Source: Escherichia coli | Lineage (GTDB): Bacteria > Pseudomonadota > Gammaproteobacteria > Enterobacterales > Enterobacteriaceae | Assembly: GCF_044647545.1 (NCBI RefSeq) | Contig: NZ_CP172818.1 | DNA: 64,000 nucleotides | Reading direction: 5' to 3' (one strand) | Shown: piece by piece, positions 63,308-63,335 of the stretch | Layout of the letters: every line of letters starts with the position of its first letter | Numbering within the stretch: position 1 is the first letter of the stretch | Program-made: the position numbers and the translations under genes | The notes under the pieces: generated by a model | What the model saw: only the letters and a program-made list of their open reading frames with translations | Database searches by the model: none | Told to the model about the DNA's origin: nothing

Positions 63308-63335
63308 AAAAACCCCACAGCAGAACGCTGTGGGG
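63308..63335 (-). terminator. Hairpin with U run between yfcV and usher (intra-operon attenuator)
   Basis: Stem ccccacag/ctgtgggg; on minus strand followed by 5 U. Confidence 0.5.

What the first reader, a model, noticed from the sequence alone, without database searches (positions are those of the whole stretch)
63308..63335. Terminator-like hairpin between major subunit gene and usher
A stem ccccacag/ctgtgggg followed by U5 on the coding strand lies in the 74-bp gap after yfcV. This is the usual chaperone-usher arrangement in which a partial terminator gives high subunit but low usher/chaperone expression. It suggests the operon has retained its expression architecture despite the distal pseudogenes.
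Basis: seen in the sequence. Interest (0 to 1): 0.25.

Follow-up and report, generated by a model that had tools for sequence, protein, structure and literature searches.

The report
Leaky terminator hairpin after yfcV
A strong, evolutionarily conserved RNA hairpin with a short U-run sits just after the E. coli fimbrial subunit gene yfcV and most likely acts as a leaky terminator and 3' stabiliser that keeps subunit mRNA above usher and chaperone mRNA, which is an ordinary, well-known arrangement.

Summary
On the coding (-) strand it reads AACCCCACAGC-GUUCU-GCUGUGGGGUU (window 63311-63337): 9 G/C-closed pairs, or 11 with two A-U pairs. It is followed by U5 and starts 6 nt after the yfcV stop codon. 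It folds at about -20 kcal/mol (z about -4). Equally strict sites number 6 in the 64 kb window against 0.3 per shuffle, and the other five all lie at gene ends.

A hairpin sits at the same place in every E. coli yfc allele examined except one deletion allele. It is also present in E. albertii, E. whittamii, Pseudocitrobacter, Citrobacter, Enterobacter and Klebsiella orthologues. 94% of cells are paired, and 6 of 10 pairs show compensatory changes.

The U-tract is not conserved. U5 occurs in only 91 complete genomes, UUAUU was seen in both other B2-like representatives read (536 and ST131), and E. albertii and K. spallanzanii have none.

My best reading is a weak intrinsic terminator that the ribosome may modulate, doubling as a 3'-end protector of yfcV mRNA, as described for papA. 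No transcript data could be examined.

"Usual arrangement" is only partly true. Among eight K-12 chaperone-usher operons, four have a terminator-like hairpin, two have a hairpin of another sort, and fim and yeh have none. This is a new member of a known kind, of low interest.

The parts
63344..63910 (-). yfcV, major fimbrial subunit gene (188 aa), stop TGA at 63346-63344
   Evidence: ORF. Pfam Fimbrial PF00419, E 1.6e-13. 100% identical stretch annotated 'fimbrial protein' in FDAARGOS_497; the orthologous gene is named yfcV in K-12.
63311..63337 (-). RNA hairpin AACCCCACAGC-GUUCU-GCUGUGGGGUU (11 bp; the G/C-closed 9-bp core is 63313-63335), starting 6 nt after the stop codon
   Evidence: Sequence. 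Folds (-20.2 kcal/mol alone; z -4.1). Covariation.
63308..63312 (-). U5 tract directly 3' of the G/C-closed stem, followed by CAACAC
   Evidence: Sequence. U5 is the minority state: 91 genomes are identical over 60 nt, and the 536 and ST131 alleles have UUAUU.
63264..63307 (-). Spacer carrying the usher translation-initiation region, with the conserved ACGGAU motif
   Evidence: Alignment of alleles. No sigma-70-like promoter found on the - strand here.
60612..63263 (-). Usher gene (yfcU orthologue, intact, 883 aa from the RefSeq-style start)
   Evidence: ORF. Pfam Usher, PapC_N and PapC_C. Annotation.
59840..60592 (-). Periplasmic chaperone gene (yfcS orthologue, 250 aa)
   Evidence: Pfam PapD_N and PapD_C. 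Annotation, mapped onto the window.
57493..59338 (-). Distal yfcO, yfcP and yfcQ, fragmented by about ten single-base indels (pseudogenes), on a K-12-like allele background
   Evidence: ORF fragments. 98.9% identity to strain HS-01, with the gaps listed.

Best explanation
The element is an RNA hairpin in the 3' untranslated end of yfcV. It most likely works as a weak (leaky) Rho-independent terminator and, at the same time, as a 3'-end cap for yfcV mRNA.

The proposed sequence of events is this. RNA polymerase transcribing from the yfcV promoter makes the G/C-rich hairpin and then the short U-run. A fraction of polymerases release there, giving a short yfcV-only transcript. The rest read through into the usher, chaperone and minor-subunit genes. 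Transcripts that end at the hairpin, or that are trimmed back to it after cleavage, resist 3'-to-5' exonucleases. The net result is more subunit mRNA than assembly-machinery mRNA, which matches a fibre built from very many subunits per usher.

The hairpin starts only 6 nt after the stop codon (5-9 nt in all orthologues). A ribosome still sitting at the stop codon should therefore hinder its folding, which makes termination inefficient and dependent on transcription-translation coupling.

Shown here: the existence, stability, position and evolutionary conservation of the hairpin, and the lability of the U-tract. Inferred: termination, leakiness, protection from decay and the ribosome effect.
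For: - Stable hairpin plus U5 on the coding strand only. It has the most stable stem of the six strict terminator-like sites in the window. Such sites are about 20-fold enriched over shuffles, and the four others whose neighbouring ORFs I listed sit at gene ends.
- A hairpin lies 5-9 nt after the major-subunit stop codon in all 14 distinct yfc-type sequences compared, from E. coli alleles to Klebsiella. 94.3% of cells are paired against 42-50% in the slid controls. 6 of 10 pairs have compensatory double changes, and 0 of 500 shuffles reach the observed covariation score. RNAalifold predicts the same helix on its own. The loop varies in sequence and length.
- 12 of the 14 have a T-rich tail, but it is short or interrupted. 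Terminator d-scores, from a formula I recalled from memory, range from +24 (this window) through +3 (536, ST131) to -20 (BL21). That range fits weak terminators.
- Precedents: partial termination between papA and papH (PMC6524683); the papA 3' terminator as an RNase-resistant end (PMC5927463); fimA mRNA 8- to 12-fold above fimI and fimC (PMC10673952).
- A terminator moved to 5-6 bp after a stop codon fell from about 90% to under 10% efficiency through ribosome interference (PMC4824070).
- Similar hairpins follow the major-subunit genes yraH, yadN and elfA in K-12.
- The element is single-copy per genome and matches no Rfam family.
Against: - No transcript 3' ends or RNA-seq coverage were available, so termination is untested.
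- The U-run is only 5 nt here. It is interrupted in both other B2-like representatives read (UUAUU in 536 and ST131) and absent in E. albertii and K. spallanzanii. Selection therefore seems to act on the hairpin rather than on a full terminator.
- Being so close to the stop codon may make termination negligible when translation is coupled.
- The built-in scan did not call the site.
- The pattern is not universal among chaperone-usher operons: fim and yeh lack it.
Confidence: 0.7

Rival explanations
1. The hairpin is essentially only an RNA-stability and processing element. Polymerase does not terminate there to any useful extent. The polycistronic mRNA is cut downstream, for example by RNase E in the A/U-rich spacer, and the hairpin blocks 3' exonucleases so that the yfcV segment outlives the rest. 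This is the mechanism described for cfaAB, malEFG and puf.
For: The stem is conserved with compensatory changes while the U-tract is not. It is absent in E. albertii and K. spallanzanii and interrupted in most E. coli. ygiL-yqiG, which has the same subunit-then-usher gene order, carries a G/C hairpin without any U-tract. Being 6 nt from the stop codon should suppress termination. Differential decay of fimbrial operons is documented (PMC5927463, citing CFA/I and papBA).
Against: This window's allele and several others (W619/O55:H7, E69, Enterobacter) do have 5-6 consecutive U directly after the stem, which a pure exonuclease barrier does not need. In the distant orthologues a second hairpin with a U-tract follows, which suggests termination is wanted in this gap. 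No cleavage site was demonstrated.
Confidence: 0.2
2. The yfcV 3' end gives rise to a small regulatory RNA, by analogy with FimR2. FimR2 is cut by RNase E from the fimA 3' UTR in the fimA-fimI gap and acts in trans.
For: FimR2 is annotated in exactly the corresponding gap of the fim operon and has been characterised (PMC9723502). A terminator hairpin is the usual 3' module of sRNAs derived from 3' UTRs.
Against: There is no sequence or structural resemblance to FimR2. Only 6 nt separate the stop codon from the stem, so any seed region would have to lie inside the coding sequence. The loop and flanks are not conserved. There is no Rfam match and no expression data.
Confidence: 0.05
3. The inverted repeat acts at the DNA level, as a palindromic protein-binding site, or is a chance or selfish palindrome with no role in expression.
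For: It is a perfect 11-bp inverted repeat. Symmetrical changes in both half-sites would also look like covariation.
Against: Loop length and sequence vary (4-6 nt). G-U pairs are tolerated in E. albertii, TUM13867 and Enterobacter, and a G-U pair is a mismatch in DNA. The position is tied to the stop codon and to a T-rich tail on the coding strand only. The element is single-copy, not REP-like and has no Rfam hit. Shuffles essentially never produce such a site.
Confidence: 0.05

Closest known systems
papA-papH intercistronic terminator of the pap (P pilus) operon
   Same: A hairpin terminator directly after the major-subunit gene of a chaperone-usher operon in which the usher gene precedes the chaperone gene. 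It is reported to terminate partially, reducing downstream transcripts, and to give papA mRNA an RNase-resistant 3' end (PMC6524683; PMC5927463).
   Different: In yfc the next gene is the usher itself, with no papH-like gene in between. There is no upstream papB-type cistron, and no 5' processing site is known. The yfc site has no experimental data, and its U-tract is short and variable. I did not compare the sequences directly.
Hairpins after other E. coli K-12 major-subunit genes (yraH-yraI, yadN-yadV, elfA-elfD, ygiL-yqiG)
   Same: Each has a stable stem-loop within a few nt of the stop codon in the gap before the chaperone or usher gene. yraH, yadN and elfA also have U-rich tails.
   Different: The sequences are unrelated. 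ygiL has no U-tract. As far as my searches went, none of these has been characterised experimentally.
FimR2 / fimA-fimI intergenic region
   Same: The same position in an operon: the 3' UTR of the major-subunit gene. fimA mRNA exceeds fimI and fimC mRNA 8- to 12-fold (PMC10673952).
   Different: The fim gap has no strong hairpin or U-tract (z = 0.25). It yields a 35-nt RNase E-processed, CsrA-binding sRNA (PMC9723502). Nothing similar is evident in yfc.
Ribosome-repressed terminators placed close to a stop codon (tR2 position series)
   Same: The stop-to-hairpin distance is 6 nt here. In the tR2 series, constructs at 5-6 bp lost most of their termination efficiency because the terminating ribosome blocks hairpin folding (PMC4824070).
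   Different: That was a synthetic reporter with a strong phage terminator. Whether the effect holds at yfcV is inference.

Membership tests
Rho-independent (intrinsic) transcription terminator | G/C-rich stem-loop in the nascent RNA | tested here: met
   9 G/C-closed pairs (11 in all), 5-nt loop, -17.6 to -20.2 kcal/mol, z -4.1.
Rho-independent (intrinsic) transcription terminator | U-rich tract immediately 3' of the stem on the transcribed strand | tested here: inconclusive
   U5 followed by CAA in this window gives d-score +24, using the d'Aubenton-Carafa formula as I recalled it from memory. The tract is UUAUU in 536 and ST131 (d +3), UAUUU or GAUUU in K-12 and BL21 (d below 0), and absent in E. 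albertii and K. spallanzanii.
Rho-independent (intrinsic) transcription terminator | RNA 3' ends generated at the U-tract without Rho, in vivo or in vitro | not testable with these tools
   No transcriptome or biochemical data were accessible. No paper links yfcV to a transcription terminator.
Intra-operon attenuating terminator of chaperone-usher operons (pap type) | Lies between the major-subunit gene and the downstream assembly genes of a single operon, on the coding strand | tested here: met
   The flanking genes are a Fimbrial-family subunit and an Usher/PapC protein, followed by a PapD chaperone, all on the - strand. No promoter-like site lies in the gap.
Intra-operon attenuating terminator of chaperone-usher operons (pap type) | Partial read-through, giving subunit mRNA in excess of usher and chaperone mRNA | not testable with these tools
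   This would need RNA-seq, qRT-PCR or reporter fusions. There is only indirect support, from the weak U-tract and from literature stating that yfc fimbriae are functional though cryptic (PMC3559732).
Conserved structured RNA element | Base pairs maintained by compensatory substitutions across homologues | tested here: met
   6 of 10 pairs show double changes. 94.3% of cells are paired against 42-50% in the slid controls. 0 of 500 shuffles reach the observed covariation score. RNAalifold gives the same helix.
REP/BIME or other dispersed palindromic repeat | Many copies per genome with a shared consensus | tested here: not met
   One place per genome in 1098 genomes. No Rfam match.
FimR2-like 3'-UTR-derived sRNA | Sequence or structure similarity to FimR2, or a discrete processed small RNA | tested here: not met
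   There is no resemblance between the yfcV gap and the fimA-fimI gap. The existence of a processed RNA cannot be tested here.

The most novel reading that the evidence does not exclude
The conserved feature may be a hairpin held 5-9 nt from the stop codon rather than a terminator as such. In that case it would be a translation-gated attenuator. Polymerases closely followed by a ribosome read through into the usher and chaperone genes, while uncoupled polymerases terminate and leave a stable yfcV-only RNA. The subunit-to-machinery ratio would then track translation status. The same logic could apply to several other chaperone-usher operons (yra, ygiL, elf). A less likely variant is that the capped yfcV 3' end also acts as a trans-acting sRNA, like FimR2.
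Probability: 0.12. Interest if true: 0.45.

Novelty: new member of a known kind. Interest (0 to 1): 0.2.

Why it matters
Taken alone this is routine operon anatomy. It explains how a fimbrial operon can make far more rod subunit than usher or chaperone from a single promoter.

It has modest practical value. yfcV is a core-associated E. coli fimbrial gene (PMC3559732), so knowing that its transcript probably ends or is capped at 63308-63337 helps in interpreting expression data and in designing constructs.

The natural variants offer ready-made tests of how hairpin and U-tract each contribute to expression polarity. These variants are U5, UUAUU, no U-tract, and a 24-bp deletion that removes the stop codon and half the stem in about 9% of genomes carrying this allele.

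Tried and rejected
- The Rfam evalue-mode scan of 62800-64000 gave only noise (best hit E 1.4; NsiR1 at E 7.8 overlaps the hairpin and is far below its gathering score).
- The built-in promoter/terminator scan did not list the site, and its overall count was not enriched (9 against 8.7 expected), so I wrote a stricter scan.
- A long-range helix pairs the yfcV 3' end with the usher ribosome-binding region in the window fold. In K-12-type alleles GGCAUAC pairs with GUAUGCC over the usher start. The partners differ between alleles and the pairing is absent in the W619 and O55:H7 alleles, so I rejected it as a conserved feature.
- Literature searches for yfcV with 'terminator', and for yfcV with yfcU, found nothing on transcript structure. 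The hits concerned sequencing kits, the FimI/PapH 'terminator' subunit, or gene lists.
- I considered an RNase E motif downstream of the hairpin (AG|AUU, GG|AUU). The motif is too short to mean anything, so I did not use it as evidence.
- The Citrobacter FP75 hairpin has a different architecture (7 bp, internal loop, 4 bp) and is partly misaligned in A1. It is therefore counted as 'unpaired' in several columns, which makes the covariation figures conservative.

Full report
**What is there.** The finding lies in the E. coli yfc chaperone-usher fimbrial operon, which runs on the - strand between smrB and sixA. The window over 63200-63420 is 100% identical to strain FDAARGOS_497, where the flanking genes are annotated 'fimbrial protein' and 'fimbrial biogenesis outer membrane usher protein'. 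Pfam confirms a Fimbrial-family subunit (63344-63910), a PapC-type usher (60612-63263) and a PapD-type chaperone (59840-60592). Read on the coding strand, the yfcV stop codon UGA (63346-63344) is followed by UGUGAC. Next comes AACCCCACAGC-GUUCU-GCUGUGGGGUU (63337-63311). The run of five U spans 63312-63308, and its first two U can pair with the AA. CAACACGC follows. The gap to the usher is 74 or 80 nt, depending on which ATG is taken.

**Is it more than chance?** The 48-nt stretch folds at -22 kcal/mol (z = -4.1; 0 of 200 shuffles fold as well). The hairpin alone gives -20.2 kcal/mol. The packaged terminator scan did not list the site, probably because extending the stem eats into the U-run. 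I therefore wrote a strict scan requiring a perfect stem of at least 8 bp, a loop of 3-8 nt and at least 5 T among the next 8 bases. It finds six distinct sites in the 64 kb window, against 0.33 hits per dinucleotide shuffle. Four of the other five (21056, 23081, 25335, 27012) lie directly after long ORFs; I did not list ORFs around 48656. The yfcV hairpin has the most stable stem of the six. On the + strand the hairpin is followed by UUGUCAC, so it resembles a terminator only in the direction of the operon. It matches no Rfam family and occurs once per genome, so it is not a REP-type repeat.

**Conservation.** The yfc locus is present in 5395 of 5426 complete E. coli genomes, but as strongly diverged alleles with 66-73% identity around this gap. 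I extracted the gap from representatives of each class. I also took orthologues found by a protein-guided scan of one genome per species: E. albertii, E. whittamii, two unnamed Escherichia, Pseudocitrobacter, Citrobacter, Enterobacter and Klebsiella spallanzanii. Every one has a G/C-rich hairpin starting 5-9 nt after the major-subunit stop codon.

- In an alignment of the 14 distinct sequences, 94.3% of cells form standard pairs, against 42-50% when the 3' partners are slid by 1-3 columns.
- 6 of 10 pairs show changes on both sides. Examples are C-G to U-A at the CAC/CAU position, C-G to U-A in strain E69, and A-U to G-C in Enterobacter and Klebsiella.
- No shuffle out of 500 reaches the observed covariation score.
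- RNAalifold predicts the same helix on its own.
- Loop sequence and length vary, and G-U pairs are tolerated. Both points argue for an RNA structure rather than a DNA site.

**The U-tract is not conserved.**

| Sequence | Tail after the stem |
|---|---|
| This window, W619 and O55:H7 | UUUUU |
| Strain E69 | UUUUUU |
| 536 and ST131 | UUAUU |
| K-12 | UAUUU |
| BL21 | GAUUU |
| TUM13867 | UUUAU |
| E. albertii | CUCAAUAU |
| K. spallanzanii | AAAAUAAU |

Within the B2-like allele family, only 91 genomes are identical to the window over 60 nt. Another 455 differ at 1-2 positions; 536, with UUAUU, was the representative I checked. A further 552 differ at 4 positions; ST131, also UUAUU, was the representative checked. 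I computed a classical terminator discriminant (d'Aubenton-Carafa) using the formula as I recalled it from memory. It gives +24 for the window, +19 for W619, +3 for 536 and ST131, and negative values for K-12 and BL21. In the three most distant orthologues a second hairpin with a U-rich tail follows the first.

**How it most likely works.** The anatomy is that of a weak intrinsic terminator placed inside an operon, directly after the gene whose product is needed in greatest amount. For the pap operon, partial termination between papA and papH reduces downstream transcripts (PMC6524683, citing Baga et al. 1985). The papA 3' terminator also serves as an RNase-resistant end (PMC5927463). In fim, fimA mRNA is 8- to 12-fold above fimI and fimC mRNA (PMC10673952).

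I therefore propose three things. Some polymerases stop at the U-run and the rest read through. The hairpin caps and stabilises yfcV mRNA. The result is an excess of subunit mRNA over usher and chaperone mRNA.

The conserved distance of 5-9 nt from the stop codon adds a mechanistic point. In a controlled series, a strong terminator moved to 5-6 bp after a stop codon fell from about 90% to under 10% efficiency, because the terminating ribosome hinders hairpin folding (PMC4824070). So this site should be leaky and sensitive to transcription-translation coupling. All of this is inference; no transcript data were available.

The main rival is that the hairpin is only a decay barrier with negligible termination. 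It is favoured by the loss of the U-tract in some lineages. It is disfavoured by the U5-U6 runs in several others and by the tandem U-tailed hairpins in distant orthologues.

**How usual is the arrangement?** I surveyed the gap after the major-subunit gene in eight K-12 MG1655 chaperone-usher operons.

| Gap | What is there |
|---|---|
| yraH-yraI | Terminator-like hairpin: 14-bp stem followed by UUUUCCUU |
| yadN-yadV | Terminator-like hairpin |
| elfA-elfD | Terminator-like hairpin |
| yfcV-yfcU | Terminator-like hairpin |
| ygiL-yqiG | G/C hairpin without a U-tract |
| sfmA-sfmC | Long imperfect hairpin |
| fimA-fimI | No significant structure (z = 0.25); encodes the RNase E-processed sRNA FimR2 (PMC9723502) |
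| yehD-yehC | 34-nt gap with no structure |

The pattern is common but not universal. The MG1655 RefSeq record annotates nothing in the yfcV-yfcU gap, and I found no paper describing this site.

**The operon in this window.** Window 57422-59673 is 98.9% identical to the K-12-like allele of strain HS-01 but carries about ten single-base indels that fragment yfcO, yfcP and yfcQ. Window 59674-64000 is 99.93% identical to the B2-like allele of FDAARGOS_497. The operon is thus a recombinant: an intact proximal half, including the hairpin, joined to a decayed distal half of different ancestry. No complete genome in the collection has this combination. 'Retained architecture' is therefore better described as a proximal module of separate origin.

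**Verdict.** The element is a conserved RNA hairpin of the familiar type found after fimbrial major-subunit genes, and most probably a leaky terminator and 3' stabiliser. This is a new member of a known kind and of low interest. The natural variation in the U-tract and the natural deletion allele offer clean tests.

Noticed in passing
window 57422-59673 versus 59674-64000: The yfc operon is a mosaic. The proximal part (yfcV, usher, chaperone and part of yfcR) is 99.93% identical to a B2-like allele (FDAARGOS_497). The distal part (yfcO, yfcP, yfcQ and the rest of yfcR) is 98.9% identical to a K-12-like allele. The breakpoint is near 59674, inside yfcR. No complete E. coli genome in the collection carries this combination.
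   Followed up: partly
window 57493-59338: About ten single-base indels relative to an intact allele fragment yfcO, yfcP and yfcQ. Several fall in short homopolymer runs, so sequencing error cannot be excluded as an alternative to real gene decay.
   Followed up: partly
L002 3100-3140 (strain EC21GDE043; same class as APEC O18): 114 of 1214 genomes with the B2-like allele fall in the identity class of the one deletion allele I read (L002). There a 24-bp deletion between short TCTG repeats removes the yfcV stop codon and the 5' arm of the hairpin. YfcV becomes 249 aa and reads into the usher start region in another frame. RefSeq marks the gene as a pseudogene. This is a natural hairpin knock-out.
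   Followed up: partly
L003 2289-2986 (strain AVS0542): An IS1 element is inserted in the yfcV-usher gap just downstream of the hairpin, and a second IS1 lies inside the usher gene. The hairpin itself is intact.
   Followed up: no
window 63270-63285 and the matching positions in L004-L011, L014, L016-L019 and L024: A conserved ACGGAU motif lies upstream of the usher start codon in nearly all Escherichia alleles read (the TUM13867 allele has AUGGAU). Some alleles have two GGA motifs (ACGGAUGGAUACGUGUAUG). It may be the Shine-Dalgarno sequence, a CsrA-type binding site, or both. In K-12-type alleles the proximal GGA is lost.
   Followed up: no
L013 1075-1109 (MG1655 fimA-fimI gap): The corresponding gap of the type 1 fimbrial operon has no terminator-like hairpin. 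It is annotated as the 35-nt sRNA FimR2, so different chaperone-usher operons use this gap in different ways.
   Followed up: partly
window 23081-23103 (+): A perfect 10-bp G/C-rich hairpin followed by CUGUUUUG lies between a 400-aa ORF and a 714-aa ORF on the + strand. It looks like another intra-operon hairpin. The ORF sizes resemble ackA and pta, but I did not check their identity.
   Followed up: no
L015 and L020 (genome-contig hits): Short contigs labelled as a Collinsella MAG and as Stappia sp. carry E. coli-type yfcV sequence. The Collinsella MAG contig is identical in the stretch read (the yfcV-usher gap) to the TUM13867 allele. These are probably contaminant contigs in those assemblies.
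   Followed up: no
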